A stretch of 64,000 bases of DNA from Candidatus Woesearchaeota archaeon (GCA_043803105.1 JAZDKJ010000008.1:1-64000); one strand, 5' to 3'; numbered from the stretch's first letter, positions 14,224 through 28,725 are shown. The notes: generated from the sequence alone by a model not told the origin. Numbers and translations are program-made.

Positions 14224-15186
14224 CTACCTCCCAAGGTGAGATGCAAAATGCACTATCCTCTTTGCAAGGTCAAAGACCAGGATTGAAAGCGATGGTTCGC
14301 TAACAGGCTTTAGTTTTTCTTCTGGAATTGCTATGACCTGAGTGCAGATGTCTCGCTTAGCTTCTTGAGCTACAGGATTGCACTCATAGTTCAAAGTCTC
14401 ATTAGACACCAAGGGCAGCGCCTTTTCCTTAATGTTCACGCACTTGTGGCTGTCCTTTGTAGCGTAAAGCTCATCAATGCAGCCAGTAACGTGAACAGAA
14501 ACGCTAGCAACAGCCGGAAGGTCTTCAACAGGAATCCTTAGCACATAGCGATCATTACCCAGTGCGAAGAACTCTCTAGTGAAGGGAAGGGCAAGCTTAC
14601 CAACATTCTTCTCATCATCTTCAGGATTTAGGGTAAAGACAACATCTGTTGAGACATTCACATCAGAAAACTCCTTGGAACCAAGACCATGGAAGTCAAC
14701 CCTGAAGAAATTCCTGTCGGTGGTGCAATTATCTATGGTAAGATTCAGGGGAGCGCAAATATGCTTGTAGCCTGGACAATTGACAGTGAACTTGAGGAGT
14801 GAAACAAATTCATAGATAGGTATGAGCTCGGCAAAGATACCTGAAAAAACCACAGAGTAATTCTTGTTCTCAATAAAGGTATATTCCTTTGACACGAACA
14901 AGGTGTTCTGTGAGTGCTTGGAGATGTTTGTCTTCTCAAAGTCAGTTGTGTAGTAAGAACCCGCGATCCATAAATAGGTGTCAGGGCCGGCCTTAATAGC
15001 AACATCCTTGATAAAGCCAGGCAATGGGACATCACCCTTTATTTGGGTAAAAGGCAGGACAGCCTGGCCGTTGGGATAGCATTTTGTTGAGGCGACCTTG
15101 CCATAATACATCATGACATCGTATTGGTCTGCAGAGACAATACCAGCTAAACAGACGAAAACCAGCAGTAGAAAAATGCACCTCAT
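14224..15186 (-). CDS. Secreted Cys-containing hypothetical protein
   Basis: Signal peptide MRCIFLLLVFVCLAGIVSA. Confidence 0.7.
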   Translation of the reverse strand: MRCIFLLLVFVCLAGIVSADQYDVMMYYGKVASTKCYPNGQAVLPFTQIKGDVPLPGFIKDVAIKAGPDTYLWIAGSYYTTDFEKTNISKHSQNTLFVSKEYTFIENKNYSVVFSGIFAELIPIYEFVSLLKFTVNCPGYKHICAPLNLTIDNCTTDRNFFRVDFHGLGSKEFSDVNVSTDVVFTLNPEDDEKNVGKLALPFTREFFALGNDRYVLRIPVEDLPAVASVSVHVTGCIDELYATKDSHKCVNIKEKALPLVSNETLNYECNPVAQEAKRDICTQVIAIPEEKLKPVSEPSLSILVFDLAKRIVHFASHLGR

Positions 15187-15266: not shown

Positions 15267-16112
15267 TCACTGGTTCATATCGCCCATGTTTACTATGCTG
15301 TTATACATAAAGGTCCCCATGATAGTCGTCATGGTTCCGTCGTCAGAGCCATAGGTGTGATATGCCTGCTCACTGGCCTTTTGCATTATTTCAGAAATCC
15401 TTTTTTTGTCTGCCTCAGTAAGCCGGCTGTTCAATGCGTTGCTGGTCTTTTGCAATGCATTTAAGTCGTCCGCCAGGTTTTTTGTAAGAGATGCAATGGA
15501 TTGTTTGAATTCCAAGAAAACACTGGCTTCTTTGTTGTAGGTCACCCTAAGGTTATTAAACTCAGCAGAATAATTTGCAAGAATTGTAGACTTAGTTCGG
15601 AAGAGAAAACGAAATCCAACGCCAATCCAATCTTCACAGAATTTCTGTTCTTGTTTGAGCAAATCCCCAAACTTTTCGATTAATGTAGTGGTCGTTTTCT
15701 CATAATCAGCAATATGCTGTGCAAAGGCATTTCCATGCGTGTTCCATTCAGCGAGTATATCATTATTTTCGGCGAAGATTGTTTTATAGATTGAGCCGAT
15801 AGTATTGAAAGCCCGTCTGTGCCAATGACAAAGATTACCTATCCCCACCTCGACTATTTTTATGAACTTGAGCTCCCTGTCAACAGCATAGATGTACTCC
15901 TCAATAAGATATTTGTCTTCTTTGGCAACACGCCATTTGTCGGTATCTTTGTATTTAGTCGTGACGTCAACAATCTTTTTTATCAGCTCTCGCTTGTAGG
16001 CAAGCCTTCTCTGCACAAATTCTAAGGTCCGGTTACTTCGTGCCCTGTCTTTTTCAATCGCACGGAGGTAATCCTCAGCCTCTGAAACTAGCTTCTCTAT
16101 GGTTTTTGCCAC
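15267..16112 (-). CDS. Hypothetical helical/coiled-coil protein
   Basis: 281-aa ORF, charged heptad-like sequence. Confidence 0.65.
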   Translation of the reverse strand: MAKTIEKLVSEAEDYLRAIEKDRARSNRTLEFVQRRLAYKRELIKKIVDVTTKYKDTDKWRVAKEDKYLIEEYIYAVDRELKFIKIVEVGIGNLCHWHRRAFNTIGSIYKTIFAENNDILAEWNTHGNAFAQHIADYEKTTTTLIEKFGDLLKQEQKFCEDWIGVGFRFLFRTKSTILANYSAEFNNLRVTYNKEASVFLEFKQSIASLTKNLADDLNALQKTSNALNSRLTEADKKRISEIMQKASEQAYHTYGSDDGTMTTIMGTFMYNSIVNMGDMNQ

Positions 16113-16246: not shown

Positions 16247-17506
16247 TCAGACGCTGCGTTCTGCAATCAACTTAGAAAACAATCGTTCTCCATATTTTGT
16301 GTACATCATATTTTTCTTAACCTTGGGATCATTCTTTAGATAATCAATGAGTTCGGTTTTACTGAGTTTGAGGTATTTTTTCATCAACCAAAATCCTTTT
16401 TGGGTTGCCGCCCATACAAAGTCCAGATCATTGAATGCAGCAAGATTCTTGTCCTTAAGGTAAATACGGTAGTCGCCGAATGCCCAGTTATCATGAACCC
16501 CAACAAGATTTACGATTGCATTTGATTTGCGCTTAGGGTAACCTGTCTTACCCAAAATATCAATAGCAATCTCTTTCCCACGTTTCATATGTAGCCTTCT
16601 GACATCCCTGTCAAAAGGGTATTCTTTACCGAATCCAACATAACCAACATCATGAAGAATCACCAATGGAAGAAGAATAGTTTCATCAAGGGACTCCTCT
16701 TTTGCCATTTTTTTTGCTTCTGATAGCATCCACTGAATGTGGTCAACGTCATTAGGCCTAGCTTTCAAATAGTAAGGTTCTGCAAATCTCCATAATTTGT
16801 CATAGATACTTTCATTCCCACATTTTTTATCAAAAGTGCATTCGGTGCAGTTTGGCAACTTCATGCAGTGCCTCTTTGCATGCTCAACTATTAAAGCATG
16901 GAATTCCTGGAAGACTTTCCAATCCTTTGTAAGTGATTTTTCGAAAAAATGTCGAACATCATCATAATCCGAGTTTTCCTTAAAAAATTTTGCTCTTGAG
17001 AAAATTCTCTTTGTATAGGCGTCAACAACGAAAATTGGGACTTTGTAAGCATACAACAGAATTGAGTCAGCAGTCTCTTTGCCTACACCCCAGACAGAGA
17101 GCAGCTGCTCCCTGGTCGGAGTCCTTCCCTTCAAACTAAGGTAAAAATCTGCAAATATCTTGAGCTTCTTTGCCTTTTGGTTGAAATATCCTGCAGGCTT
17201 TATCGCTGACGTTAATCTGTTAACGGACATTTTCTTAATCTTTGCTGCATCGATTGAATTTGATTTCTTGAGGTTTGTTAGGGCTTTCTCGACATTAGGC
17301 CAGGCAGTGTTCTGCGTCAGTATGGCACCAACACAAATCTCAAATCTTTGCGCATCTGTTCGTGGATACGAGTAGTCTCCGGGATGATAACCTCTAATCG
17401 AGCCTGTCTTTGTCGGATTGCAACCTTTGCAATCTAGAAGAGGCCACCAGCCTTGAGAGCCGTAGTTCTTGAGAAGGGTTTTGTAGATTTGGAGGATTTG
17501 GTTCAT
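16247..17506 (-). CDS. Endonuclease III-like HhH-GPD glycosylase fused to a C-terminal HD-domain hydrolase
   Basis: GWWP, GAILTQNTAW, LLSVWGVGKETAD, VVDAY, Fe-S motif CMKLPNCTECTFDKKC; then H...ILHDVG...HD...D. Confidence 0.85.
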   Translation of the reverse strand: MNQILQIYKTLLKNYGSQGWWPLLDCKGCNPTKTGSIRGYHPGDYSYPRTDAQRFEICVGAILTQNTAWPNVEKALTNLKKSNSIDAAKIKKMSVNRLTSAIKPAGYFNQKAKKLKIFADFYLSLKGRTPTREQLLSVWGVGKETADSILLYAYKVPIFVVDAYTKRIFSRAKFFKENSDYDDVRHFFEKSLTKDWKVFQEFHALIVEHAKRHCMKLPNCTECTFDKKCGNESIYDKLWRFAEPYYLKARPNDVDHIQWMLSEAKKMAKEESLDETILLPLVILHDVGYVGFGKEYPFDRDVRRLHMKRGKEIAIDILGKTGYPKRKSNAIVNLVGVHDNWAFGDYRIYLKDKNLAAFNDLDFVWAATQKGFWLMKKYLKLSKTELIDYLKNDPKVKKNMMYTKYGERLFSKLIAERSV

Positions 17507-17594
17507 TTAGGCTATTTAAGTCACTCTTATTATAAATAATTATTTATACTTATAAATTCATTTATGCTTACTACAAAGGAACAGAGGTTTTTAC

Positions 17595-18011
17595 ATGAAA
17601 ATCTTTTTTTCAGGTTCGATTCGCGGCGGTAGAAATGATGTTGATATTTACAGAGAAATAGTCGACTACTTGAAGACCAAGGGAGAATTATTCGGTGAAT
17701 TTAATGCCGATAAGACTTTGGAGGAAAAGGAGAAGAAGGAAAAAACAAGTGACAATGAAATTCATAAGAATGATGTAAGACTGATAAAACAATGTGATAT
17801 TTTAGTTGCAGAGGTCTCAACTCCCAGCATTGGAGTTGGATACGAAATTGGGATTGCTGAATCCCTTAAAAAGACAATACTGTGCCTATTCAGAGAAGGA
17901 GTAGGTGCAAGACTATCAGCCATGATTAATGGCAATGACAAGATCACTGTCATAAGGTATACAACGGTGGAGGAGCTTAAAGAAGAACTCAAGGATTTTT
18001 TTGATGGTTGA
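17595..18011 (+). CDS. Nucleoside 2-deoxyribosyltransferase / DNPH1(Rcl)-like N-glycosidase
   Basis: IFFSGSIRGGR, D...CDILVAEVSTPSIGVGYE, LSAMI. Confidence 0.9.
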   Translation: MKIFFSGSIRGGRNDVDIYREIVDYLKTKGELFGEFNADKTLEEKEKKEKTSDNEIHKNDVRLIKQCDILVAEVSTPSIGVGYEIGIAESLKKTILCLFREGVGARLSAMINGNDKITVIRYTTVEELKEELKDFFDG

Positions 18012-18057
18012 GACTCTCACGACCGATAGTTGCCTGTATTAAACAAAACCTTTAAAT

Positions 18058-18088
18058 ATAAGTAATACTTATTGGTAAGTAAATCTTA
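18058..18088 (+). promoter_or_regulatory. Putative operator pair upstream of the AbrB-PIN module
   Basis: Perfect palindrome ataagt-aat-acttat plus imperfect copy taagtaaatctta, next to a TTTAAATA box. Confidence 0.5.
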
Positions 18089-18103
18089 TTATAGGTGAAA
18101 AAA

Positions 18104-18361
18104 ATGGACAAGATCGAGATAACCAGCATGAGTTCAAGGGGGCAGGTTGTTATACCTCAAGACATTAGGGAGCAACTTGGTTTGCGAGATGGTGAGAAGT
18201 TCGTTGTCATAGGTGAAGATGACACTGTGGTCTTAAAGAAGATATCAATGCCCTCTTTTGAAAACTTTGACAAGCTGCTTAAGAAGACTCAAGAGTTTGT
18301 CAAGAGCAAGAATATCACTAAGGAAAAACTTGAAGGAGCTATCAGCAGAGCTCGGAAATGA
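18104..18361 (+). CDS. AbrB/MazE-family antitoxin
   Basis: MSSRGQVVIPQDIREQLGLRDG. Confidence 0.9.
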   Translation: MDKIEITSMSSRGQVVIPQDIREQLGLRDGEKFVVIGEDDTVVLKKISMPSFENFDKLLKKTQEFVKSKNITKEKLEGAISRARK

Positions 18362-18759
18362 AGGTAGTTATAGACACCAATGTTTTCATCTCAGGGATAT
18401 TTTGGACCGGCAGCCCAAATAAGGTAATAACTGCATGGAAAGCTGGAAAATTCCAAACTATTGTGTCAATTGATATTGTCAATGAGATAAGTAGAGTATT
18501 ATCTGATTTTGAAATTGCTCTTCCGCCAGAGCAGATTAGCGAATGGACTGATTTGATAATGAAGAATTCTATTATAGTAGAACCTCAGGACAAGGTGATG
18601 ATTGTAAAGGAGGATCCAGCTGACAATAAATTTGTAGATGCGGCTGTTTCAGGAAAAGCAGAGTTAATAGTGACCGGAGATGCTCACTTGAAGAAACTAA
18701 AAGAGTATCAAGGAGTAAAGATCATTTCTCCTGATGAATTCTTACAAATGTTGAAATAG
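18358..18759 (+). CDS. PIN-domain (VapC-like) toxin
   Basis: VVIDTNVFIS, DPADNKFV, IVTGD.HL; ATGA overlap with the antitoxin. Confidence 0.9.
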   Translation: MKVVIDTNVFISGIFWTGSPNKVITAWKAGKFQTIVSIDIVNEISRVLSDFEIALPPEQISEWTDLIMKNSIIVEPQDKVMIVKEDPADNKFVDAAVSGKAELIVTGDAHLKKLKEYQGVKIISPDEFLQMLK

Positions 18760-18773
18760 GATATGGAATTTAC

Positions 18774-18964
18774 TCACTCAAAAGTATATATTGTAGAATA
18801 TATTAAAATTATTAGTTAATAAGATTATTAAAACAAGAAGGAGGTTTTAGGTTTTCCATGCTCAGAAAATATGATTTTCTGGCATCAGAAAAATGCTCTG
18901 GCATTTTTCGACATTTGGAACAAAAAATATCTGGAATCCCCAAATCCTTAGTATTCCCAATATA
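18774..18964. repeat. Island-end element R, copy A (complete)
   Basis: 18774-18845 identical (72 bp) to 24855-24926; 18847-18940 identical (94 bp) to 25729-25822. Confidence 0.9.
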
Positions 18965-19159
18965 TTGTGTCAGTATTGCCCCAACACAGATTTCAAATTG
19001 CTGGTTTTTTGTCTTTGGATAAGAATAGTCTCCTGGATGATATCCTCTTATTGAGCCTGTCTTTGTCGGATTGCAACCTTTGCAGTTTATGAGGGGCCAC
19101 CAGCCTTGAGGGCCGTAACTTTTCAAAAGGGTTTTGTAGATGTAAATTTTTTCTTTCAT
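18965..19159 (-). pseudogene. 5' fragment of endonuclease III-like gene truncated at GAILTQ
   Basis: YKTLLKSYGPQGWWPLINCKGCNPTKTGSIRGYHPGDYSYP...GAILTQ matches the N-terminus of 16247-17506, then similarity stops. Confidence 0.9.
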
Positions 19160-19161
19160 GA

Positions 19162-19461
19162 TTAATAATGACCAGCTTTGTTTATTCGTTCTTGATTCTG
19201 TCTAATTTTTTTGAGTTTCTCAGCTGTTTTATTTTTTGTTAGAACCCAATATACTCCTTGATAAGAATTCTTTGCCAAATAACCGAAATTAACAAGTTCT
19301 CTTCTGATAAGAGCATAATCCTCAACTTCAAAGGAATTAATGACATCATTGACTTCTTGTTCACTATATTCTGTATCTTCTTGAAATTTATTGATTATTT
19401 TTTGCAGGATTTCCTGTTTTTTCAAGTCATCTTTCGGTAAGGTTATCATTGAATTCAGCAA
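19162..19461 (-). CDS. DUF2087-like winged-helix protein
   Basis: LPK...KKQEIL, YSEQEVN, DYALIRRELVNFGYL...YW. Confidence 0.75.
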   Translation of the reverse strand: MLNSMITLPKDDLKKQEILQKIINKFQEDTEYSEQEVNDVINSFEVEDYALIRRELVNFGYLAKNSYQGVYWVLTKNKTAEKLKKIRQNQERINKAGHY

Positions 19462-19739
19462 TACTGAATTTTTATTGATCTTTATTCCTTTTCAATGTCT
19501 TTTTTCATACCAGGAAAGATTCCATCCATCTAGTTCACAATGCCGAAGCAGACAAATATTTTCCACCCAAGAATATAATGGGTTGGCAAGATATTAGTTA
19601 AGACATCTTCTCTATCAGGGTTTAGACCTACTATTGCAGATGCTGCTGCTAATAGGAAACAAAAGACGCACACAAATCGGATTCCCAAAGTACCATCAAC
19701 CCACTGTTTGATTATAAGCTTTTCTTGTGTTAGGATGTT

Positions 19740-20576
19740 TTAACACTTCTTCCACCTGTAAAGTTTGTCAATCCTCGCGTGGTCCACTGCGAGCATCTCA
19801 AAATCAAGACCTGCCTGATTCTCTTCCAGATGTTGCTTATTCATAGAGGTGAAGATTATACTAAAGTTCTTTTTCGCCGTTGCCCAGTTGATCAATATTT
19901 GTGCTTGGCTCTTCCTATATTTGCTCGCAAGCTCTATTAGGAGAGGTACTCTATCCGTTAACAGCTTGCCTCGGCCAAAAAGCTTGTAGGCAATGACCAT
20001 GATGTCATGTTCCTGACAATAATTCATCGTTGCAACATCGGCAGGTGCCTTGGTCCAAAGTGAAAGTTTCATCTGGTTGGCAACAATTTTGGCGGCAGAG
20101 CATTTCTGTGCTTCCTTCAGTTCCTCAATTGAGAAATTGCAAACACCAATGTTACGGACAAGCTTGTGGTTAACAAGAGCATTCATCGCCTCCATTGTCT
20201 CTTGGATTGGTACATCAGGGTTTGAAGAATGCAAGAGGTAAAGGTCCAAATGTTTAATTCCCATTCTTTTTAAGCTTGCCTTGGCTGCTGCTATTAAGTC
20301 ATCGTACCTGAAATGTGTATTGTAGACTTTACTTGTGATTAACAATTCGTTCGTGTCAAACCCACGGATCGCTTCACCCACCAACTCTTCAGTATGGTTT
20401 CCACCGTACACTTCAGCCGTATCAATATGAGTATAGCCCATTTTAATTGCAGTCCTTATTGTGTTTATCCATTCCTCATCTCTGGAATGGTCTGGTTCAT
20501 GCTCGCCGCCGAAGGAAAACGTGCCTATCCCGAGCGCAGGCATACTGAAACGAGATTTGAGCGTTACGGTTTTCAT
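19740..20576 (-). CDS. Aldo/keto reductase
   Basis: LGIGT, HIDTAEVYG, ITSK, DLYLLH, IGVCNF. Confidence 0.92.
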   Translation of the reverse strand: MKTVTLKSRFSMPALGIGTFSFGGEHEPDHSRDEEWINTIRTAIKMGYTHIDTAEVYGGNHTEELVGEAIRGFDTNELLITSKVYNTHFRYDDLIAAAKASLKRMGIKHLDLYLLHSSNPDVPIQETMEAMNALVNHKLVRNIGVCNFSIEELKEAQKCSAAKIVANQMKLSLWTKAPADVATMNYCQEHDIMVIAYKLFGRGKLLTDRVPLLIELASKYRKSQAQILINWATAKKNFSIIFTSMNKQHLEENQAGLDFEMLAVDHARIDKLYRWKKC

Positions 20577-20636
20577 GCTAGAATCCTTTATAAAACATAA
20601 TGATATCTCCTACATTTAAAGGTTTCCCTGTTGGTT

Positions 20637-21535
20637 GGGTGCGTTTAAAATCTTAATTTTTATTAACCCGAGCAGCCGTTAGGCTGCTTGGGGGTGGGGA
20701 GCACGCCCCACCATGGTATGTGATGAGAAGCTGGTAAATAAGATTAAGCGTTTGCTTAGGGCTGTTGGTTGCCCTAGATGGTTGCACCATTTTGGTCCTA
20801 AGAAGTATGAGTTGGTTCACCATTTGCTTGCTTTGATTGTTAAGCAAGAGTGTAAGCTTGGTTATCGTCGAGTTACTAGGCTGTTTAGAGGTTTGGGCTT
20901 AAGTGCCCTTGTTATTCTGCTTTGTGGCATTGTATGAACAGGATTCCTTTGGATTTGTGGCAGCGCGTATTGGCTGCCACAAACAAGCTCAAAAGTTACA
21001 TTGTAGCAATCGATGGCACAGGAATGTCCAGACCATTACCTAGCCCCTATTACTACAAAAGAATTGACAAACCTTATCCGATTGACATTCCACTTAAACT
21101 GTCTATTGCCGTCGACACAAAAACCAAAAGAATTTTAGCTCTTCGACTAAGAGCTAAAAGATCGCATGATATCAAAGATGCACACTATCTTGTGAGGAGA
21201 TTACCAAAAACTGAATGGATTGTTGCTGACAAAGGATACGACGCCGACACATTGCACAAGTTTTGCAAAGCAAGAAATATCAAATGCTGCATACCTATGA
21301 GAGAGTACAGAGAATCCAGAAATAAAAAGCACACTTTAAGACGACAAAATCAAATATATGTACATCATAAAAGATATCACAGAAGAGAGATTGTTGAATC
21401 AGTCTTTAAAGCAATGAAATGCAAATTCGGACCAAGTGTAAACTCCATCCAGATCTGCCCCAAGGGCAGAAATCTATTGTAGGGCTATAGCCCACAATAC
21501 TTTTTCTTATTTTCTAAGACTTTTTAAACGGAGCC
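20637..21535 (+). mobile_element. IS5-like insertion sequence (~900 bp), degenerate
   Basis: Imperfect terminal inverted repeats gggtgcgtttaaaa (20637-20650) / ttttaaacggagcc (21522-21535) around a DDE transposase; no clear target duplication. Confidence 0.75.
20713..21535 (+). pseudogene. IS5-family DDE transposase with two frameshifts (~20899 and ~21458)
   Basis: AIDGTG, ADKGYD, YHRREIVESVF..MK; conserved continuations (KCPCYSAL; RAEIYCRAIAHN) lie in shifted frames. Confidence 0.8.
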
Positions 21536-21643
21536 TGAATGTTTTACCGAAAACTTCCAGAGATGTCTTTCCAAATTCTTGTAGCCAGTTGTGAGGTCAA
21601 ATAAATCAAAACCTATTTATACAGAAAATTTACTCCCCTTCTT

Positions 21644-22234
21644 ATGAGATTAGTGTTGATACGTCATGGTAAGCCCAAAATTACTGATGGAGATCTTTAT
21701 CGGTGTCGTTTGGGAGAAGAAGGAATAATAAACACTAGAGATCTTGCATCCTCTGGAAAGATACCTGTACCGGACCTAATCTTTACGAGCCCGTATAATA
21801 GGACAATAGACACTGCCAGAGTCTTTTCCGAATTTTTTTCTGTAAAATATGAAATCCTAGATTGTTTGAAGGAATGGAACTTACAATCATTAAATCTTAA
21901 AGAAGATTATGCTGTACAAGAGCGGCTTGGCTGGAATGACCATGATAAGGTTGTTTTTGGAAATGAATCATTGAACAATGCTAAAGAAAGGATTTTGAAA
22001 TGTATCAAGGAGTTAGTTGGTAAGCACAAAACACAAAAAAATATCCTCCTAGTCTCACATGGTACCGTAATTGATATGTTCTGCTCAGCCATATCCGGGA
22101 GAGAAGCAAAAATATCAGACATTAGAAATTCGAATCATTTGGACTATGCTGTGGTTGATTTTCAAAGCGGGAAATTCAATTTAATTAAGGATTTGGTACC
22201 AACTCTTAGGGAAGCAGGCCAAAAATCCAGTTAG
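21644..22234 (+). CDS. Histidine phosphatase (PGM-like) family
   Basis: LIRHG, TSPYNRTIDTA, GNES, LVSHG. Confidence 0.9.
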   Translation: MRLVLIRHGKPKITDGDLYRCRLGEEGIINTRDLASSGKIPVPDLIFTSPYNRTIDTARVFSEFFSVKYEILDCLKEWNLQSLNLKEDYAVQERLGWNDHDKVVFGNESLNNAKERILKCIKELVGKHKTQKNILLVSHGTVIDMFCSAISGREAKISDIRNSNHLDYAVVDFQSGKFNLIKDLVPTLREAGQKSS

Positions 22235-22341
22235 GCATCATTTAGAATATAAAAGCGTTCTTTCCAATATCCCAGTCGCACAAGCAATCCCACCAGCGCC
22301 GTTTACAATTTGATTTATTTCTACGATAATCATTTCTATAA

Positions 22342-22390
22342 TCACCCAAAAGCATATATTGCAGAATATAGTAATTTTACTAATTAATAA
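22342..22390. repeat. Element R, left part (diverged copy)
   Basis: About 41/49 identity to 18774-18822 by manual alignment. Confidence 0.75.
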
Positions 22391-22413
22391 AAACCAAAAT
22401 CTTTAAATAATAG

Positions 22414-22428
22414 TTCCTATAATAGGAA
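22414..22428 (+). promoter_or_regulatory. Putative operator upstream of the MNT-HEPN pair
   Basis: Perfect palindrome ttcctat-a-ataggaa just before the ATG. Confidence 0.45.
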
Positions 22429-22433
22429 TTATT

Positions 22434-22982
22434 ATGGAAAGCAAAGAAAATAATGTTTTAGAGTTGTTCTTTAACGAGCCGACTAGAGAGTGGCATTTTG
22501 AAGAGATCCTAAAAGAAGCAAGAATTGCAAGGAGCAAAGCTCTTGGTTGGTTGAGATTGTTTACAAAAGAAGATATTATCAAAAGAATCAAGAAGAAAGG
22601 AAAAATGCCCTTTTATACTGCAAATTTCATATCCAACAATTATAGAAACCTTAAGATGATTTTTGCGCGCACAAAATTCTATGAAAGCGGCTTTCTAAAT
22701 CACCTACAGACTCTAGATAATGTTAAGACAGTAATTCTTTTTGGCAGCTTTGCCAGGTCAGACTGGTACAAAAATAGTGATATTGATATTTTCATTTACG
22801 GAGACCCAAAGAACTTGAAAATAGCGCCCTATGAGATCAAGTTGAATCATAACATCCAGTTATTTATCTGCAAGAATTCCGAAGAGCTTGAAAAATATGG
22901 TGCTGGATTGATAAGAAACATTATTAAGGGGGATTTGATAAAAGGTGATATAGATTTCCTAAGGGTGGAAGTAAATGCCTGA
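22434..22982 (+). CDS. HTH + minimal nucleotidyltransferase (MNT antitoxin)
   Basis: N-terminal wHTH; LFGSFARSDWYKNSDIDIF. Confidence 0.88.
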   Translation: MESKENNVLELFFNEPTREWHFEEILKEARIARSKALGWLRLFTKEDIIKRIKKKGKMPFYTANFISNNYRNLKMIFARTKFYESGFLNHLQTLDNVKTVILFGSFARSDWYKNSDIDIFIYGDPKNLKIAPYEIKLNHNIQLFICKNSEELEKYGAGLIRNIIKGDLIKGDIDFLRVEVNA

Positions 22983-23445
22983 ATACTTGACAAAAGAAGA
23001 AGCATTTGCAAAATGCCAAAAGCAAGGCAAATTTATTGCGATTGAAGACATTGATACTGAGAAAATCAAGTCAACTGTCGCTATCGCTGAATCAGACGTT
23101 AAATCAGCGGAGATTCTTAAGAAAAACCTCTCAAAGGAAGCCAATGAGTGGAGCAGTGTCTTCAAATTGTATTACGACGCGCTTCATGAGCTCTCAGAAA
23201 GTTTTTTGCGGTTTGACAAGGTCAAATTTGATAATCACCAGTGTCTGTTTTCTTACCTTTGTGTAAAACATCCCGAGCTTGAACTGTCTTGGGACTTTCT
23301 TGAGAAGGTTAGAACTAAAAGGAACGGAATAAACTACTATGGTATTCCAACAAGCTATGCGGATTGGAAGGAAGTTGAATTGCAAATTAGCCTTTACATC
23401 AAACTGTTGAAAAGGGAAGTCGAAAAGAATATAGAGCAAAGCTAG
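22975..23445 (+). CDS. HEPN-domain toxin
   Basis: Helical; YYDAL, NHQCL, RTKRNGINYYG (R-x4-Y HEPN variant); overlaps the MNT gene. Confidence 0.8.
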   Translation: MPEYLTKEEAFAKCQKQGKFIAIEDIDTEKIKSTVAIAESDVKSAEILKKNLSKEANEWSSVFKLYYDALHELSESFLRFDKVKFDNHQCLFSYLCVKHPELELSWDFLEKVRTKRNGINYYGIPTSYADWKEVELQISLYIKLLKREVEKNIEQS

Positions 23446-23510
23446 AACAAGAAAGGAGGTTTAGGTTTCGACATTTGGCACCCTACAATATTTGGCGTCC
23501 ATTAATCATT
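23445..23510. repeat. Element R, right part (diverged, lacking the hairpin insert)
   Basis: gaacaagaaaggaggtttaggtttcgacatttgg aligns to copy A with the atgctcag...gcattt hairpins absent. Confidence 0.75.
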
Positions 23511-23638
23511 ACAAAAATTGTGCGAGAGGATTGCAAACGCGTTAAGCAAGGATAAGAATATTAGATTACCCCAAAAAAAGCTCCCGGCCAAGTACAAAAC
23601 TCAACAGTTAATAAAAAATAATTAAGGAGGGAAGAATA

Positions 23639-24355
23639 ATGGCAATCAAAGCAATAATCTTCGATTGGAATGACACAATCACGGATCAATCTAGCACATT
23701 TTCCTATTTGTTGGAGAAAAAAATCGACCAGAAAATCATGCAGAATTTTGGCATTAAAGTTGATGATGAAGTATTCCTTTCTGGTATGAGAAAGACTAAC
23801 AAAGAGCTAAGAAAAGTCACCTCAATCAAAGCAAAGGAACTGCCTGGGTTGTGGACCAAGATTTTTTTTAAGCAGATCGGTTTGAAAGTGGACGATGAGA
23901 TAAGCAAACTCATTCAAGAGGAATATGAAAATTACTATTTACTCAATATCAAATTGAATCCAAACGTTGCGGAAACAGTGAGTGTTCTAAAGCAAAAGAA
24001 AATTCAGCTTTTTCTACTAACCAACTGCATTCGATCGAGTCTGAATAAGGAATTAGCAAAGTTTGGATTTGGTGAGTTATTTTCCAAGATTGTTACGGGA
24101 AGTGATGCCGGAGAAAAAACAACGTCAGAACCATTCAAATTGCTTCTAGGAATAATGCAAAATGAATTTCGAGGAGAAATCAGACCACAGGATTGTCTCA
24201 TGGTTGGTAACAGTCCAGAAAATGATCTCCTGGCAGCCAAGTTTGGCATTCATACTGCGATCTATGACAAGACTGGAAAGTACAAAGACCTGAAAGGCAT
24301 GGAGTTTCACGTCAAAGACTTTCTTGAACTTGTTCAACTAGTTGATGAAGTATGA
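23639..24355 (+). CDS. HAD-superfamily hydrolase
   Basis: IIFDWNDT, LLTN, K, MVGNSPEND. Confidence 0.85.
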   Translation: MAIKAIIFDWNDTITDQSSTFSYLLEKKIDQKIMQNFGIKVDDEVFLSGMRKTNKELRKVTSIKAKELPGLWTKIFFKQIGLKVDDEISKLIQEEYENYYLLNIKLNPNVAETVSVLKQKKIQLFLLTNCIRSSLNKELAKFGFGELFSKIVTGSDAGEKTTSEPFKLLLGIMQNEFRGEIRPQDCLMVGNSPENDLLAAKFGIHTAIYDKTGKYKDLKGMEFHVKDFLELVQLVDEV

Positions 24356-24412
24356 GTTACCCCCAAAGGATTTTGTTCTTGGTACCAAGAAATACAAAAG
24401 AAATTTTAAGAG

Positions 24413-24712
24413 CTAGCACAAGCAAGGTGTTGAAAGAAAGAACCAAGTTAATGCAGAGACTTCATGTGCATTCTTTGCGTCAGGCGTTTCCTGGCAGAAA
24501 TGTTCGTCCACCAAGCTTGAATTATCGTTACCATTTGGGAATTCTGCATCTTTGCTCGAAAGTGAGACAAAAGCTTTTACCACCTCAAATCCGTTATATC
24601 GTAGAAAATCCACGATTTCTTCGGCAACTGTATGATTCCAAAGGAACCCTGCTCTTCTTCGGAGCGTACTCGGTTTCAATAAAAAGAAAGTATAATGATC
24701 TTCAGTTATCAT
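24413..24712 (-). CDS. Hypothetical small protein; N-terminus weakly resembles NDP kinase (possible fragment)
   Basis: YTFFLLKPS...EIVDFLRYNGFEVV resembles the NDK start; no catalytic His region. Confidence 0.35.
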   Translation of the reverse strand: MITEDHYTFFLLKPSTLRRRAGFLWNHTVAEEIVDFLRYNGFEVVKAFVSLSSKDAEFPNGNDNSSLVDEHFCQETPDAKNAHEVSALTWFFLSTPCLC

Positions 24713-24854
24713 TTTTCTTAGAGCGATCTTACTTACAACAATATAAAAGTTTTGATTCCCCCCTGCGAAACGCGATTTTGTTTTTGGAAGGAGTGTATAG
24801 GTATCACCCTTTAGGCCTCAGACTGTTTGTCCACTAAAAATCCAGCAAAATTCA

Positions 24855-24980
24855 TCACTCAAAAGTATATATTGTAGAATATATTAAAATTATTAGTTAA
24901 TAAGATTATTAAAACAAGAAGGAGGTACTCTTGGGATTCCATGTTTGGTACTCACAATGTCTGGAATACATTTCCTTAAT
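24855..24980. repeat. Element R, copy B
   Basis: 72 bp identical to copy A, then a diverged right part (tttggtactcacaatgtctggaat...ccttaatc). Confidence 0.85.
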
Positions 24981-25023
24981 CCCTTTTTAAACATAAAACA
25001 AAAGATATTTATATAAGTTTATA

Positions 25024-25037
25024 TATACAATTGTATA
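25024..25037 (+). promoter_or_regulatory. Putative operator upstream of the wHTH-RelE pair
   Basis: Perfect palindrome tatacaattgtata next to a TTTATATA box. Confidence 0.45.
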
Positions 25038-25063
25038 AGCTCATATAAATTAGGTGAAGTAAA

Positions 25064-25327
25064 ATGCAAAACTTGGAAATCATTCATTATCCAAATTTGA
25101 AGACAGTTCTTATGGTAGAGGAAACTCTAAAAAAGTCAAACAAATTGATGAGTAGAGAACAATTGAAGAGCAAGCTTAAAACCAAGATTATGCACCAAAC
25201 CCTTAATATTATTCTTAAGTATCTAGAGGACAGTGGGAAAATAATTGACGGTCGAAAAGGAATCATATGGATTCACAACCCAAGCCAAAAACTGGACAAA
25301 GCAATAAAGGAAGGAGTTGAACTATAA
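25064..25327 (+). CDS. Small winged-helix protein, putative antitoxin
   Basis: PNLKTVLMVE...QTLNIILKYLEDSGKI...WI; translationally coupled to the next gene. Confidence 0.7.
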   Translation: MQNLEIIHYPNLKTVLMVEETLKKSNKLMSREQLKSKLKTKIMHQTLNIILKYLEDSGKIIDGRKGIIWIHNPSQKLDKAIKEGVEL

Positions 25328-25704
25328 TGTTTAAGGGAAAGCCTGTAAAGGTTATTATCACAGGCGGGGCTAAAGAAGAGTTTGATGAACTCAATCAGAT
25401 TGTAGGTGAAGAAATAGCAAAAGGAATAACAAGCAGCGATCATCAAACTTTACTGAATTCAATAAAACAAAAGGTGGATTTATTACAATTGAATCCTGAG
25501 TATGGAATCCATATCCCTAAAGACAGAATCCCAAAAGAGTATGTTGTCAAGTATGATGTTAATAACCTGTGGAAGGTGAATCTCTCAGGGGCTTGGAGAA
25601 TGATTTATACAATAAGGGGAAGTGAAGTAGAGATTATTTCCTTAATACTTGATATTCTGAACCATAGTGATTATGAAAAGAAGTTTGGTTACAGAAAAAA
25701 TTAA
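25327..25704 (+). CDS. RelE/ParE-like toxin
   Basis: NPEYG, NLWKVNLSGAWRMIYTI, ILDILNHSDY..FGY. Confidence 0.7.
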   Translation: MFKGKPVKVIITGGAKEEFDELNQIVGEEIAKGITSSDHQTLLNSIKQKVDLLQLNPEYGIHIPKDRIPKEYVVKYDVNNLWKVNLSGAWRMIYTIRGSEVEIISLILDILNHSDYEKKFGYRKN

Positions 25705-25710
25705 CAAATA

Positions 25711-25846
25711 GAACAGGAAGGAGTTACCTTAGGTTTTCCATGCTCAGAAAATATGATTTTCTGGCATCAGAAAAATGCTCTGGCATTTTTCGACATTTGG
25801 AACAAAAAATATCTGGAATCCCTTAATCATAAGTATTCCTAATATA
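25711..25846. repeat. Element R, right part, copy C (with hairpin insert)
   Basis: 94 bp identical to 18847-18940; continues to the nth junction. Confidence 0.9.
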
Positions 25847-26020
25847 TTGTGTCAGAATGGCCCCGATACACACCCCAAAGCACTGCGCTTCTGTCTTAGG
25901 GTAGCTGTAATCGCCAGGATGATACTCACATAACAGAGTTTTGTCATTTATCAGACGCCACCATCCTTGAGGACCATAACTCTTGAGAAGGGTTTTGTAG
26001 ATTTGGAGGATTTGGTTCAT
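25847..26020 (-). pseudogene. Second 5' fragment of endonuclease III-like gene truncated at GAILTQ
   Basis: First 40 bp identical to 17467-17506; ends GAILTQ followed by element R. Confidence 0.9.
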
Positions 26021-26062: not shown

Positions 26063-26479
26063 TCAATCAGATAATTCTTCTTCTCGAATCTTTGCCAGCA
26101 ACTTTTTAGTGTTATCAAATGGCAAAAGCTTTGCAGCCTCTGTTTGGGTTACCCATGCGAATTTTGTGTGTTCATTAGAGAGTTTAACTTTTTCTTCGTT
26201 TGTTTGAACAAGATAGTAATGGATAATACGTTTTTTCAAAACATCAGGTTTTTGCACAGCGTAATTAATAGCGCCAATCTTTTTTATTATTTTGATCATA
26301 TGGATACCTACCTCTTCCTTAATTTCTCTTTTTATAGTGTCTTCGTGAGATTCAAGGTCTTCTGTGTGCCCCTTTGGGAATTCCCAATCCTGGCTATCAG
26401 CTCTAAGTAAAAGGAGGAATCTTTTCTTGATACCATTATAGAGGAATGCGCCAACTGATTCTTCAGTTACATATTTCAT
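26063..26479 (-). CDS. NUDIX hydrolase (Ap4A hydrolase-like)
   Basis: WEFPKGH...REIKEEVG, LSNEH..FAW. Confidence 0.88.
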   Translation of the reverse strand: MKYVTEESVGAFLYNGIKKRFLLLLRADSQDWEFPKGHTEDLESHEDTIKREIKEEVGIHMIKIIKKIGAINYAVQKPDVLKKRIIHYYLVQTNEEKVKLSNEHTKFAWVTQTEAAKLLPFDNTKKLLAKIREEELSD

Positions 26480-26774
26480 TTTACCCTTCAGCGATGTTAA
26501 ATACTGACCTTATTAACCTTCTGCTTGGTGGATTGCCTTGCAGAGAATAAGCAACATCAGGACCTGAACAATTTATTCCTATGTTGACAACTCCTTGTTT
26601 TGTTCGACCACCCCGGAATACGAAATATACTTCACTGCCTACACTCTGCTTAATGTATTCATACATTGTTGCAAACACTCCCAATTCATGACATGTGGCA
26701 TTACCTGAGTAGATATTCTTATCCAGGACAGCATGACCCCTGATTGAAAACGGCCTTTGCGCCAAGTTTGCTCT

Positions 26775-27278
26775 CTGCGGATCAAGTCCAAGGGTGGGTT
26801 CGTCCAAAAAAAGTATTTTAGGCTCGTGAAGAAGGCCTCTCGCAATCTCCATCCTGCGGCGCATCCCGCCAGAATACTTCTTGACCTGGTCATTTTTTCG
26901 CTTCTGCAGGTTGACAAGAGAAAGAACCTTGTCAATCTTTGTCCCAATGTCACGCAAGGGAAGGTCATATATCAGAGCATGAAGCTTTAGGTTCTCATAA
27001 CCTGTAAGAAGCTCATCAGAACTAGGATCCTGGAAGACGATTCAAATCGAATCCCTAACCTTTGCAGGCTCACGCACAACATCAAAGCTGTTGACAACTG
27101 CCTTACCTGAAGTGGGCTTTAGCAGAGTGTAGAGCATAAGCAGGGTTGTGGTCTTGCCAGCACCGTTAGGACCTAGGAGCCCAAATATTTCGCCTTCATG
27201 AATCTTTAGGCTAATCTTATCAACTGCTAGAAGATTGCCATACTTCTTGGTGAGGCTGTTGACCGTAATTGCATCCAT
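26775..27278 (-). pseudogene. ABC transporter ATPase pseudogene (in-frame TGA at 27042-27044, truncated after LDPQ)
   Basis: GPNGAGKT, SI*IVFQ, YSGGMRRR, LFLDEPTLGLDPQ, then unrelated sequence. Confidence 0.85.
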
Positions 27279-27341: not shown

Positions 27342-28364
27342 TTAGGTTTTACAACCTGTTGTCGCGTCGCAACCCTTGTTACCACAATATTGGGCATAGT
27401 CATAATACTTACAATAACCAGGGTCGCAGCTAATATCTGTGCCGTGACCTGTCGTGCAACGGTTGAAGTCTTTCCAGACTGCTCTGCCGTAAACACACTT
27501 GTTCTGAAACTCATTAGGTTTGGTCAAACAATTCTCCTTAGGCAGTGGATTGCAGGAATTATTTGAACAGCCGTATTGGCAAGTTGTGCCTGAGTCCCAA
27601 ACCCAGTTGCTTGTGCAGGTCCTTAGCATGCTGCCATCACAGATGGTCTGGCCCATGACACAAAAGTCACTCAAGTCACAAGTGCAGGCACCGGGTCCTT
27701 GAGGTCCTTGAGGTCCTACTTCACCCTCTGGTCCCTGCGGGCCTGTTAGACCTATCGGTCCTATCAAGCCTGGCGGTCCTACTGGCCCTTGCGGTCCTGT
27801 TGCTCCAGTGGTGCCTTTATCGCCTTTCAAACCCTGAGGTCCTGTTGGTCCGGCTGGTCCTGCCGGGCCTGGAGGTCCTTGCGGTCCTGCTGTTCCTGTA
27901 TCTCCCATTTCTCCCTGAGGTCCTTGCGGCCCTGCGGTTGGTGTGATCTTGAATGCATTATACCTTATCCAGAAGTAGTTATTCGGTGTGTCATAGAAGC
28001 CGAACATCATTCCTTGAATTATTATACCGTTTTCACAACCTAAGGTGAAAGTTCCCGAACTCCTAGCGGCATCCACGGTTGCACCAGTATAAAATCCTTC
28101 ACAGGCACCCACATCTGCAAAGTTTGCGGTTACATTGCCGTACATTTCTCCAACAGTGCTGCACATGCTGTCGTAATATGTATTGCTTAATACATCAATA
28201 GTCCCGTCAAGGTCGCCGTTAAGACTACCTGTGAACTCCTTAACCCCAGTTGGGCGGCCAATATATGTTAGCCTTCCGTACCCTCCAATTCGTTCCCAGT
28301 CAGCCAATACCACTGGCACCAACATTAAAAGCAGCGTAGCCAACAAAAAGATTGCTTTTCTCAT
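27342..28364 (-). CDS. Secreted collagen-like protein with Cys-rich C-terminus
   Basis: Signal peptide; 26 uninterrupted Gly-X-Y triplets (27693-27932); Cys-rich tail. Confidence 0.88.
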
Positions 28365-28725
28365 TCTTACTTACCTCCTACATTTGTTGATTTACTTTAA
28401 CAATATCCTTTGCAAGATATTGCAGGACCAAAATGTCGAGAGACTGCAAGCGGATTGCGCAGCATGCCATTAACTAACCCAGAATAAATTGACTTATTGG
28501 TCCCCCCAAAATATTTCATTTACAAATTTACCATTAATTAGTAGTAGTTTAAAAGCATTTATATCTTTTAGTAGTGAATGCACTTCTGGGCAATACTTCA
28601 AGAACATAGCCTTATCTTTTGGAAAGGCTGACAACTTTGATTGTGTACATGCAATTACTGCAATGAATTTCTCTTTATTAAAGGTGGGCCATAGAAAAAT
28701 CAAAAAAAAGAAAAAGAAAGAAAGT

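What the first reader, a model, noticed from the sequence alone, without database searches (positions are those of the whole stretch)
16247..26020. Serial integration into the endonuclease III gene: integrase-less islands that replace the 5' end of nth
Seen: three different versions of the nth 5' end. One belongs to the intact gene; the other two (18965-19159, 25847-26020) stop at exactly the same codon (GAILTQ|) and are followed by the same non-coding element R (94 bp identical). The versions are mosaic: fragment C shares its first 40 bp with the intact gene but has a different loop (INDKTLLCEYHPG), while fragment A has the CKGCNPTKTG loop but a different start. Established: integrative elements that target protein genes often carry a replacement gene end so the target stays intact. 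Inference: two successive integrations (cargo about 17507-18964 and 19160-25846), each restoring nth and orphaning the previous 5' end. No integrase is encoded in this stretch, so the islands would be mobilised in trans. I do not know of this being described for DPANN archaea.
Basis: partly seen in the sequence, partly recalled or inferred. Interest (0 to 1): 0.85.

Follow-up and report, generated by a model that had tools for sequence, protein, structure and literature searches.

The report
Stacked gene islands in a DNA-repair gene
A small archaeon's DNA-repair gene has been hit at least three times at the same codon by small mobile islands, each bringing a new front end for the gene; this is a known way of integrating, seen here at a target and in a host group for which I found no earlier report.

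Summary
An intact nth-like glycosylase gene (16247-17506, minus strand) is preceded by two orphan 5' ends (18965-19159 and 25847-26020). Both stop at the Gln codon of GAILTQ and both are followed by the same element R, with a 94-nt identical run.

I also found a third, decayed R at about 23447-23493. The stretch therefore holds at least three units, not two.

Comparative data support site-specific serial integration:
- A metagenome contig from a relative (L135) has three orphans plus an intact gene, with the same R, the same D5 repeat and the same toxin-antitoxin modules.
- Genome G140 has one orphan cut at the same codon.
- In L136 and G451 a roughly 590-aa tyrosine integrase lies 126 nt and 98 nt from this junction.
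- The 13.4-kb G451 element also carries a D5-like primase-helicase, and its arm next to the junction is homologous to R.
- 12 of the 24 short metagenome ORFs I read (one is the window's own fragment C) stop being nth-like at this Gln.

The window holds no integrase or integrase remnant, and this 96%-complete genome has no close relative of that integrase. Mobilisation in trans is therefore plausible but not shown, and no reads could be laid.

This is the same kind of system as dusA-type islands, tandem accretion and integrase-less CIMEs, with a new target and host.

The parts
16247..17506 (-). Intact target gene: an nth-like HhH-GPD glycosylase fused to an HD domain (419 aa).
   Evidence: Pfam finds HhH-GPD (2.7e-16), HHH and HD. 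NCBIfam nth and MagIII hits are below their cut-offs.
17312..17506 (-). Current 5' end of the gene (65 codons up to the Gln of GAILTQ). By inference it was brought by the last unit to integrate.
   Evidence: It is 78.5% identical to fragment A and 70.6% to fragment C. The junction reads CAG|AACAC.
17595..18759 (+). Cargo of the innermost unit: a nucleoside 2-deoxyribosyltransferase-like gene (17595-18011), a MazE-type antitoxin (18095-18361) and a PIN toxin (18358-18759).
   Evidence: Pfam.
18767..18845 (.). D5 repeat, copy A. It ends sharply at ..CTTTTGAGTGA when read in the nth direction.
   Evidence: Repeat family D5. The core motif occurs only 3 times in the genome, all in this locus. Alignment A2.
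18847..18964 (.). R, copy A: the arm that starts right after the orphan's Gln codon (TATATTGGGAATAC.. in the nth direction). It carries two inserted palindromic hairpins.
   Evidence: It is homologous to the junction-side arm of the G451 element. Fold z-score -3.5.
18965..19159 (-). Orphan nth 5' end A (65 codons, ends at GAILTQ).
19162..22234 (.). Cargo of the middle unit: DUF2087 (19162-19461, -), aldo/keto reductase (19740-20576, -), a DDE transposase in two ORFs (20713-21482, +) and a histidine phosphatase (21644-22234, +).
   Evidence: Pfam. The histidine phosphatase has a 73%-identical counterpart beside an orphan in L135.
22335..22413 (.). D5 repeat, middle copy (63% identical to copy A).
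22434..23445 (+). A wHTH-nucleotidyltransferase (MNT-like, 22434-22982) with a partner ORF (22975-23445). The pair sits between R' and D5.
   Evidence: Pfam NTP_transf_2 and Polbeta. NCBIfam MntA hit is below its cut-off. The partner ORF has no family hit, so 'HEPN' is only my reading of the gene pair. 82% identical to L135 1018-2158.
23447..23493 (.). Decayed third R (R'). A possible remnant of the orphan junction lies near 23535.
   Evidence: Local alignment score 43 against a maximum of 30 in 300 shuffles. The junction remnant itself was not tested against shuffles.
23639..24837 (+). Cargo of the outer unit: an HAD hydrolase (23639-24355) and a stretch with no family hit (24352-24837).
   Evidence: Pfam. 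NCBIfam found nothing for 24413-24712.
24848..24926 (.). D5 repeat, copy C (96% identical to copy A).
25064..25704 (+). A wHTH protein (25064-25327) and a RelE/ParE-like protein (25327-25704) nested between R and D5. The pair is flanked by a direct repeat of about 35 nt.
   Evidence: The family hits are weak: ParE_toxin 0.0083 and RelE_StbE 0.0028. 83% identical to L135 3420-4298. Flanking repeat.
25729..25846 (.). R, copy C.
25847..26020 (-). Orphan nth 5' end C (58 codons, KTLLCEYH type, mosaic).
26063..26479 (-). NUDIX hydrolase gene. This is the flank outside the array.
   Evidence: Pfam. It has no syntenic counterpart in G001 or G140.

Best explanation
The stretch is an accretion array at a site-specific integration hot spot inside a conserved DNA-glycosylase gene.

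The site. The recombination core is the roughly 12 nt that encode Ile-Leu-Thr-Gln of the GAILTQ motif.

The autonomous elements. Members of this family are 10-13 kb or longer and encode a roughly 590-aa tyrosine integrase with a C-terminal zinc ribbon. At least one also encodes a D5-like primase-helicase. They recombine with the gene at this core.

How the gene survives. In most cases seen, the arm on the gene's upstream side carries a promoter and a copy of the first 58-65 codons. The gene therefore stays whole, and the former 5' end is left behind as an orphan joined to the element's other arm, which begins TATAT.

What happened in this genome. This occurred at least three times. What remains are three integrase-less units of about 1.65 kb, about 4.3 kb (including a later IS) and about 2.3 kb. 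Each begins with the conserved arm R, followed by D5. The units hold toxin-antitoxin pairs and small enzymes.

Shown:
- the anatomy of the array;
- the shared junction in several lineages;
- integrases next to that junction in other genomes;
- the homology of R to the arm of one integrase-bearing element.

Inferred:
- each unit entered by integrase action;
- the order of events;
- the units can still be moved by a helper element's integrase, as with CIMEs. I put this last point at about 0.4.
For: The junction and its spread:
- Two orphans and R meet at one codon, with an abrupt change of identity there: R is 95% identical between copies, the nth parts 64%.
- All seven orphan junctions then in hand read ..CAA and the three intact sites read ..CAG|AACAC. 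Six of the seven continue |TATAT; the G140 orphan continues |GTGTT. The G451 orphan, found later, also reads CAA|TATAT.
- L135, which is 68-94% identical to the window over its aligned segments and syntenic on the 3' side, has three orphans plus an intact gene, each orphan followed by R.
- G140, from another family, has an orphan cut at the same codon 2.7 kb upstream of its intact gene.
- Of the 24 short ORFs I read out of 57 hits, 12 stop being nth-like at this Gln. One of the 12 is the window's own fragment C, and 7 of them, fragment C included, continue with Tyr.

Integrases at the junction:
- L136: the orphan ends at GAILTQ|TATAT, and 126 nt later a 591-aa integrase starts (PF00589 1.8e-12, zinc ribbon), followed by a defence island.
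- G451: an orphan|TATATTAG.. junction on one side and ..|ILTQ-3' part on the other bound a 13.4-kb element. The integrase lies 98 nt from the second junction and the element carries a D5-like helicase. The 12-nt cores match at 10 of 12 positions.
- G508: a 55%-identical integrase lies 7.7 kb upstream of nth on the same strand.

Link to R:
- The first 50 nt of the G451 arm align to R_C with score 38. Shuffles gave mean 14.8 and maximum 29, and none of 1000 reached the observed score.

The islands look foreign:
- GC is 0.31-0.39 across the islands, apart from the AKR/IS segment at about 0.43-0.44, against 0.43-0.46 in the flanks.
Against: - There is no integrase or integrase remnant in the window, in L135, or in the 18 kb examined in G140.
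- The genome's own integrases of this broad family are only 24-32% identical to the nth-linked clade. Two of them sit beside a GC-rich RNA-like motif instead of nth.
- Only two genomes show the integrase next to the junction. G494 has a 45%-identical integrase but no nth of this family.
- The arms in L136 and G140 are not significantly similar to R.
- Fragment C is a mosaic, so homologous exchange also acts on these copies.
- The G451 element does not replace the 5' end. It carries a whole nth in the opposite orientation, so the family is not uniform.
- No reads were available, so neither excision nor the correctness of the assembly is shown directly.
Confidence: 0.75

Rival explanations
1. 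Relic array. The units are decayed leftovers of once-autonomous elements whose integrase and replication genes were deleted. They no longer move. R and D5 are kept alike by gene conversion or by another role such as transcription termination.
For: - The 96%-complete genome has no cognate integrase.
- The third R is decayed and its orphan is almost gone.
- An IS and a broken ABC ATPase gene lie in or beside the array.
- The mosaic of fragment C shows exchange between copies.
Against: - No integrase or helicase remnants are left in three separate arrays (G000, L135, G140).
- The start of R is better conserved across five copies in two lineages than the orphans beside it.
- The same R[TA]D5 modules stand in a different order and beside different orphans and cargo in G000 and L135.
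Confidence: 0.4
2. Campbell-type homologous recombination. Circles carrying a truncated nth 5' piece fused to R enter by a single crossover within the roughly 195-nt homology. No integrase is needed. All orphans end at one codon only because the truncated piece is inherited with R.
For: - The copies are mosaic: fragment C has 41 nt identical to the intact gene followed by a different type. The first 65 nt of fragment C are 94% identical to L135 fragment 2.
- The model would explain the lack of an integrase.
Against: - The same junction occurs without R in G140 and L136.
- It lies 98-126 nt from integrases in two genomes.
- In G451 the repeat flanking the element is only about 12 nt long.
- The 5' copies are only 64-80% identical, which is a poor substrate for homologous recombination.
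Confidence: 0.1
3. Assembly chimera of strain variants of one locus in the metagenome-assembled genome.
For: The genome is a MAG, and no reads could be laid to check it.
Against: - The three 5' copies differ by 21-36% and stand between different genes.
- Independent assemblies show the same kind of array or junction: L135 with three orphans, G140 and G451.
Confidence: 0.03

Closest known systems
dusA-specific genomic islands and prophages with DAI integrases (PMC4482086; I read passages found by search, not the whole paper)
   Same: - Integration is by a tyrosine recombinase at one site in the 5' part of a conserved housekeeping gene.
[quoted passage not shown]
- A remnant 5' end stays behind.
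- Cargo is varied and includes restriction-modification genes.
   Different: - The target is an HhH-GPD glycosylase and the hosts are DPANN archaea.
- Several tiny integrase-less units are stacked here.
- The integrase clade is Xer-like with a zinc ribbon. Its relation to DAI integrases was not tested.
Cis-mobilizable elements (CIMEs) and tandem accretion with ICEs (ICEberg 2.0, PMC6323972; passages read)
   Same: - The paper defines CIMEs as having lost their integration and transfer genes while keeping intact attL and attR.
- They form tandem composites with an autonomous element at the same site.
- The window's units fit that anatomy.
   Different: - The helper here would be an integrative plasmid- or virus-like element of archaea, not a conjugative element.
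- No helper is present in this genome.
- Mobilisation is not shown.
Tycheposon-built islands in Prochlorococcus (bioRxiv 10.1101/2020.12.28.424599; passages read)
   Same: The paper describes repeated integration at one site that pushes older elements inward. It also describes partial copies of the target gene between elements and degenerate remnants within the islands.
   Different: - The target there is a tRNA gene and the partial copies are short.
- Here each event copies 58-65 codons of a protein gene, and the units share a roughly 140-200-nt arm.
Integrated mobile elements of Thaumarchaeota (PMC6563490; passages read)
   Same: - This is archaeal site-specific integration into protein genes.
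- The paper says arrays formed by re-use of one site are known for tyrosine-recombinase elements.
   Different: The 14 of 68 protein-gene integrations reported there lie in 3'-distal regions with short att sites. Here the 5' end is replaced, and the hosts are DPANN.
Archaeal integrons and CALINs (bioRxiv 10.1101/2022.02.06.479319; passages read)
   Same: Arrays of small integrase-less gene units in archaeal MAGs, Nanoarchaeota included, in which toxin-antitoxin genes are common.
   Different: - There is no integron integrase.
- R-D5 shows no attC-type ends on inspection.
- The units have mixed orientation and their own promoter-like sequences.
- Each unit carries a copy of the target gene's 5' end.

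Membership tests
Integrative elements that target a protein gene's 5' end and restore it (dusA-island type) | All insertions lie at one conserved position in the target gene. | tested here: met
   The Gln codon of GAILTQ is the break point in 2 orphans of G000, 3 of L135, 1 of G140, 1 of L136 and 1 of G451.
Integrative elements that target a protein gene's 5' end and restore it (dusA-island type) | The element supplies a replacement 5' end, so the gene stays open. | tested here: met
   Intact ORFs lie downstream of the orphans in G000 (419 aa), L135 (283 aa) and G140 (269 aa). G451 is an exception: there the element carries a whole nth instead.
Integrative elements that target a protein gene's 5' end and restore it (dusA-island type) | The element encodes its own tyrosine integrase next to an att site. 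| tested here: not met
   None was found in the window, L135 or the G140 locus. The feature is met in L136 (126 nt from the junction) and G451 (98 nt).
Integrative elements that target a protein gene's 5' end and restore it (dusA-island type) | Excision gives a circle and a restored junction. | not testable with these tools
   No sequencing run was listed, so no reads could be laid.
CIME (cis-mobilizable element) | Flanked by attL- and attR-type sites, with no integration or transfer genes. | tested here: met
   Each unit lies between two ILTQ sites, with R on one side and an nth 5' copy on the other. No recombinase is present.
CIME (cis-mobilizable element) | A related autonomous element uses the same att site. 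| tested here: met
   The G451 element has the same core, and its arm is homologous to R (none of 1000 shuffles reached the score). It is in another genome, not in G000.
CIME (cis-mobilizable element) | Mobilisation with or by the helper element is shown. | not testable with these tools
   This needs reads or an assay.
Integron or CALIN | An integron integrase, or clustered attC sites with the usual inverted-repeat ends. | tested here: not met
   There is no PF00589 hit on contig C8. By inspection, R begins TATATTGG and D5 ends CTTTTGAGTGA, with no GTTRRRY-type ends. No dedicated attC finder was available.
MITE or IS-derived element (for the R-D5 module) | Terminal inverted repeats, a target-site duplication and copies at other places. 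| tested here: not met
   There is only a weak 8+5-nt inverted repeat. I saw no duplication. R and D5 occur nowhere else in the genome. The end motif is not enriched.
SSV-type integrase elements (integrase gene split on integration) | Integrase gene halves lie at the two ends of the element. | tested here: not met
   tblastn found no integrase fragments. The frames reading across R into the antisense of nth close within about 55 codons.
Endonuclease III (Nth) proper, for the target gene | The protein reaches the curated nth model cut-off. | tested here: not met
   TIGR01083 scores 70.5 bits against a cut-off of 211.7. The best hit is the MagIII-type PRK13913 at 109.7 against 192. The HhH-GPD domain is present. 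The gene is best called an endonuclease III-related glycosylase.

The most novel reading that the evidence does not exclude
The nth site may serve as a gene-capture platform in DPANN archaea.
- Integrase-less cassettes of 1.3-4 kb would each carry their own copy of the target gene's first 58-65 codons plus a conserved roughly 140-nt arm (R-D5).
- The integrase of a visiting plasmid- or virus-like helper would insert, excise and reshuffle them.
- Toxin-antitoxin pairs would enter at a second site inside the arm.

This would be an integron-like system built on a housekeeping gene rather than on attI and attC.
Probability: 0.25. Interest if true: 0.8.

Novelty: new variant of a known kind. Interest (0 to 1): 0.6.

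Why it matters
Mobile elements of DPANN archaea are poorly known, and I could not find their integration sites described.

- The finding gives a defined, conserved target: the ILTQ codons of a COG2231-type glycosylase gene.
- It gives a candidate integrase clade and a recognisable scar, namely an orphan 5' end that stops at GAILTQ. The scar can be searched for in any assembly.
- It also shows how small genomes can gather toxin-antitoxin and defence genes without losing the target gene.
- If the small units prove mobile, they would be an archaeal counterpart of CIMEs or cassettes that depend on a helper's integrase.

My full-text searches found no paper describing integration into an endonuclease III-type gene in archaea. 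One search listed 15 of 583 papers and one search listed 15 of 25. I screened these by title and abstract start and read passages of one, PMC6563490. Supplementary tables of the papers cited could not be read and may list further target genes.

Tried and rejected
- **R as a known RNA.** Rfam gave no relevant hit. The only hit was a sub-threshold Mg riboswitch match at 15369-15469, E 0.68. The window has no tRNA.
- **R as a decayed continuation of nth.** The best local match (CCAAATGTCGAAAAATGCC against CCTAATGTCGAGAAAGCC) was reached by 216 of 500 shuffles against the whole rest of the gene, and by 74 of 2000 against its first 150 nt. This is not significant. The G451 arm holds a similar CCTAATGTC at the same distance, so the point stays open.
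- **R hairpins as the conserved core.** A stem pattern found nothing in metagenome or viral contigs. Alignment shows the hairpins are secondary insertions, different in G000 and in L135 copy 1.
- **The junction pattern with TAYAT in 401 order genomes.** It matched G000 only.
- **80 nth loci from species genomes.** None holds an orphan ending at GAILTQ.
- **Viral contigs.** No junction pattern, no nth 5' fragment and no relative of the L136 integrase were found.
- **An arm-type motif ATATATTGGGAATA.** It is not enriched in the window (2 matches; 13 of 100 shuffles did as well) and is absent from the G451 locus.
- **An unoccupied site in the same genus.** G001 (84% complete) shows no nth 3' part with this query. 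It has only an N-terminal remnant cut after WWPL.
- **NUDIX synteny.** None was found.
- **Sequencing runs.** None was listed, so no reads were laid.
- **The rest of the L136 record.** It could not be searched because the record is not held.
- **ORF 24413-24712 as a nucleoside diphosphate kinase.** This was my own recalled impression. Pfam and NCBIfam gave no support.

Full report
**What is in the window**

The window is contig C8 of a 1.56-Mb Woesearchaeota-type MAG with 13 contigs, 96% complete.

The target gene:
- On the minus strand lies a 419-aa gene (16247-17506) with an HhH-GPD glycosylase domain and a C-terminal HD domain.
- It is endonuclease III-related, not a curated Nth equivalog. 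TIGR01083 scores 70.5 bits against a cut-off of 211.7.

The two orphans:
- Two further copies of its first 58-65 codons lie upstream at 18965-19159 (A) and 25847-26020 (C) (E 4.7e-34 and 4.3e-20).
- Both end at the Gln codon of GAILTQ.
- Both are followed by R (18847-18964 and 25729-25846), which has a 94-nt identical run and 113 of 119 matching columns. The nth parts beside R are only 64% identical.
- R is followed by a 79-nt repeat, D5 (18767-18845). In copy C, D5 lies at 24848-24926, because a wHTH + RelE-like pair is nested between R and D5, flanked by a repeat of about 35 nt.

A third unit:
- A third D5 (22335-22413) lies beside a nucleotidyltransferase pair.
- On the other side of that pair is a decayed R (23447-23493; score 43 against a shuffle maximum of 30).

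Read in the direction of nth, the stretch is:

NUDIX | orphan C | R [RelE-like pair] D5 | HAD | (orphan nearly lost) R' [MNT pair] D5 | histidine phosphatase, IS, aldo/keto reductase, DUF2087 | orphan A | R-D5 | PIN-MazE, deoxyribosyltransferase-like gene | intact gene.

Other properties of the stretch:
- R and D5 occur nowhere else in the genome.
- GC is 0.31-0.39 across the islands, apart from the AKR/IS segment at about 0.43-0.44. The flanks are 0.43-0.46.
- No integrase is present.

**Is it more than a local oddity?**

Species genomes of the order:
- 109 of 201 genomes have the N-terminus.
- Only G000 and G140 show a short copy plus an intact gene on one contig.
- G001, of the same genus, has a remnant cut after WWPL. 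These tallies, and those, include the unpublished genomes G132 and G182. No other claim rests on them.
- In G140 the orphan also ends at GAILTQ. It is followed by an MNT-HEPN-like pair and a PEP-utilising enzyme, then the intact gene.

Short proteins in metagenomes:
- A search for short proteins like the fragment A ORF gave 57 hits.
- Of the 24 I read, 12 stop being nth-like at this Gln, the window's own fragment C among them.
- 7 of the 12, fragment C included, go on with Tyr.
- One of them, P0001, repeats the R-encoded tail.
- Some of these may be cut by contig ends. I could not see their contigs.

The degenerate junction pattern:
- It found only G000 among 401 order genomes.
- It found two metagenome stretches, L135 and L136.

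L135 holds three orphans, each followed by R, and then an intact gene. It also holds the neighbour gene that corresponds to window 14224-15186. Its MNT pair, RelE-like pair and histidine phosphatase are 73-83% identical to those of the window. They stand in a different order and beside different orphans and cargo.

**The recombinase**

L136:
- Its flank encodes what I read as an archaeal ribosomal protein (S8e, from the ORF translation; no family search was run).
- The orphan ends GAILTQ|TATAT.
- 126 nt later a 591-aa tyrosine integrase starts (PF00589, zinc ribbon). A DUF6602 protein, a QueC-like protein and large ORFs that I read as type I restriction-modification genes (not family-searched) follow.

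Phylum search with the L136 integrase (401 genomes):
- 16 genomes matched at E up to 1e-45.
- Three carry full-length relatives: G451 and G508 at 55% identity and G494 at 45%.

G451:
- A 42-codon orphan ends GAILTQ|TATATTAG.
- 13.4 kb further on, the resident 3' part restarts exactly at ILTQ, 98 nt from the integrase start.
- The two 12-nt cores match at 10 of 12 positions.
- The element carries a D5-like primase-helicase and a whole nth of its own in the opposite orientation.
- The PUA-domain neighbour gene shows which nth part is resident.

G508 and G494:
- In G508 the integrase lies 7.7 kb upstream of nth on the same strand, and the contig ends before the expected orphan.
- G494 has no nth of this family.

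Link to R:
- The first 50 nt after the G451 junction are homologous to R. The score is 38 against a shuffle mean of 14.8 and maximum of 29, and none of 1000 shuffles reached it.
- The arms of L136 and G140 are not significantly similar to R.

**The core and the 'double' genes**

- Orphans keep nth sequence up to the Gln codon. All eight use CAA, and seven continue TATAT.
- Resident 3' parts start at the Ile codon of ILTQ.
- The intact sites read CAG|AACAC. The shared core is therefore the roughly 12 nt encoding ILTQ.
- In G140, L135 and G508 the intact gene carries an in-frame extra segment..AIL(T/A)Q.T.WYP..V.. plus about 35 residues, then ILTQNT.W.NVEKA...
- I read this as an upstream arm that contains a longer nth-derived piece. 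That is inference.
- Fragment C of the window is of this KTLLCEYH type.

**Mechanism and limits**

- The best reading is serial site-specific integration with restoration of the target. It left CIME-like integrase-less units.
- Homologous exchange also acts on the copies. Fragment C is a mosaic.
- Whether the units still move is open.
  - In favour: the start of R is conserved, modules are shuffled between G000 and L135, and no recombinase remnants are left.
  - Against: G000's own integrases (418-431 aa, 24-32% identical to L136's) are not close relatives. Two of them sit beside an RNA-like motif. One R is decaying.
- No sequencing runs were listed, so excision and assembly could not be checked.

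**Comparison with what is known**

I read passages found by search, not whole papers.
- Replacement of a gene's 5' end by an island is described for dusA (PMC4482086).
- Arrays formed by re-use of one site, and integration into archaeal protein genes (3'-distal), are described for Thaumarchaeota (PMC6563490).
- Serial integration that leaves partial target copies is described for tycheposons (10.1101/2020.12.28.424599).
- Integrase-less att-flanked CIMEs and accretion are described in ICEberg 2.0 (PMC6323972).
- Archaeal CALINs rich in toxin-antitoxin cassettes are described in 10.1101/2022.02.06.479319.
- Two full-text searches found no paper on integration into an endonuclease III-type gene in archaea. 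One search listed 15 of 583 papers and one search listed 15 of 25. I screened these by title and abstract start and read passages of one.

The palindromic hairpins inside R look like secondary insertions of that sort. I did not compare the sequences.

**Verdict**

- The mechanism is of a known kind, at a target and in a host group for which I found no report, with an unusual stack of small helper-dependent-looking units.

Noticed in passing
window 18860-18910 and 25742-25792; L135 956-1010: R carries perfect palindromic hairpins, for example a 9-bp stem with a 4-nt loop. The short R copies of L135 lack them, and L135 copy 1 has different ones at another position. They look like small secondary hairpin insertions.
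   Followed up: partly
G000 C7 about 30530-30575 (L006 494-540) and C10 about 28510-28625 (L007 723-835): Two of the genome's own zinc-ribbon integrases (418 and 428 aa) each lie downstream of a GC-rich stretch sharing the motif GCGCCGnGGTGGCACAACCTGGTACTGCGC. ARAGORN and Rfam found nothing there. It may be the attachment region of these integrases in an unrecognised RNA gene.
   Followed up: partly
L170 2466-3218 (G451) and the 'double' nth genes of L135 (6834-7685), L048 (11287-12096) and L171 (2416-3249): The element-borne nth copy in G451 reads GAVLAQ at the target motif. The first site of the 'double' genes reads GAILAQ in two of three cases. Altered core codons might protect these copies from further integration.
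   Followed up: no
L049 1643-1711 (G001) and L100 6985-7047: nth N-terminal remnants are cut near the WWP motif rather than at GAILTQ. One lies beside an MNT-HEPN-like pair in the sister species. The other lies 3 kb upstream of an nth that starts at residue 26 in an Akkermansiaceae genome. This may be a second break site or simple decay.
   Followed up: no
window 26481-27278: An ABC-transporter ATPase gene is split into two ORFs (78 aa and 158 aa) just outside the array. It is probably a pseudogene.
   Followed up: no
window 27342-28364: A secreted-looking 340-aa protein has a long run of collagen-like Gly-Pro-X triplets. It shows up as a 9-nt periodic repeat family.
   Followed up: no
window 16247-16800: Only in G000 is the glycosylase fused to an HD domain. 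The relatives' genes I looked at are about 200-340 aa, and those I read have no HD domain. An extra 281-aa coiled-coil-like gene (15267-16112) separates it from the neighbour that is adjacent in L135.
   Followed up: no
L129 11482-11574 and L088 10196-10915: One Nanoarchaeota locus has a duplicated nth 3' end about 800 nt after the intact gene. One Woesearchaeota nth has an internal insertion of about 190 nt. These hint at other events in the same gene family.
   Followed up: no
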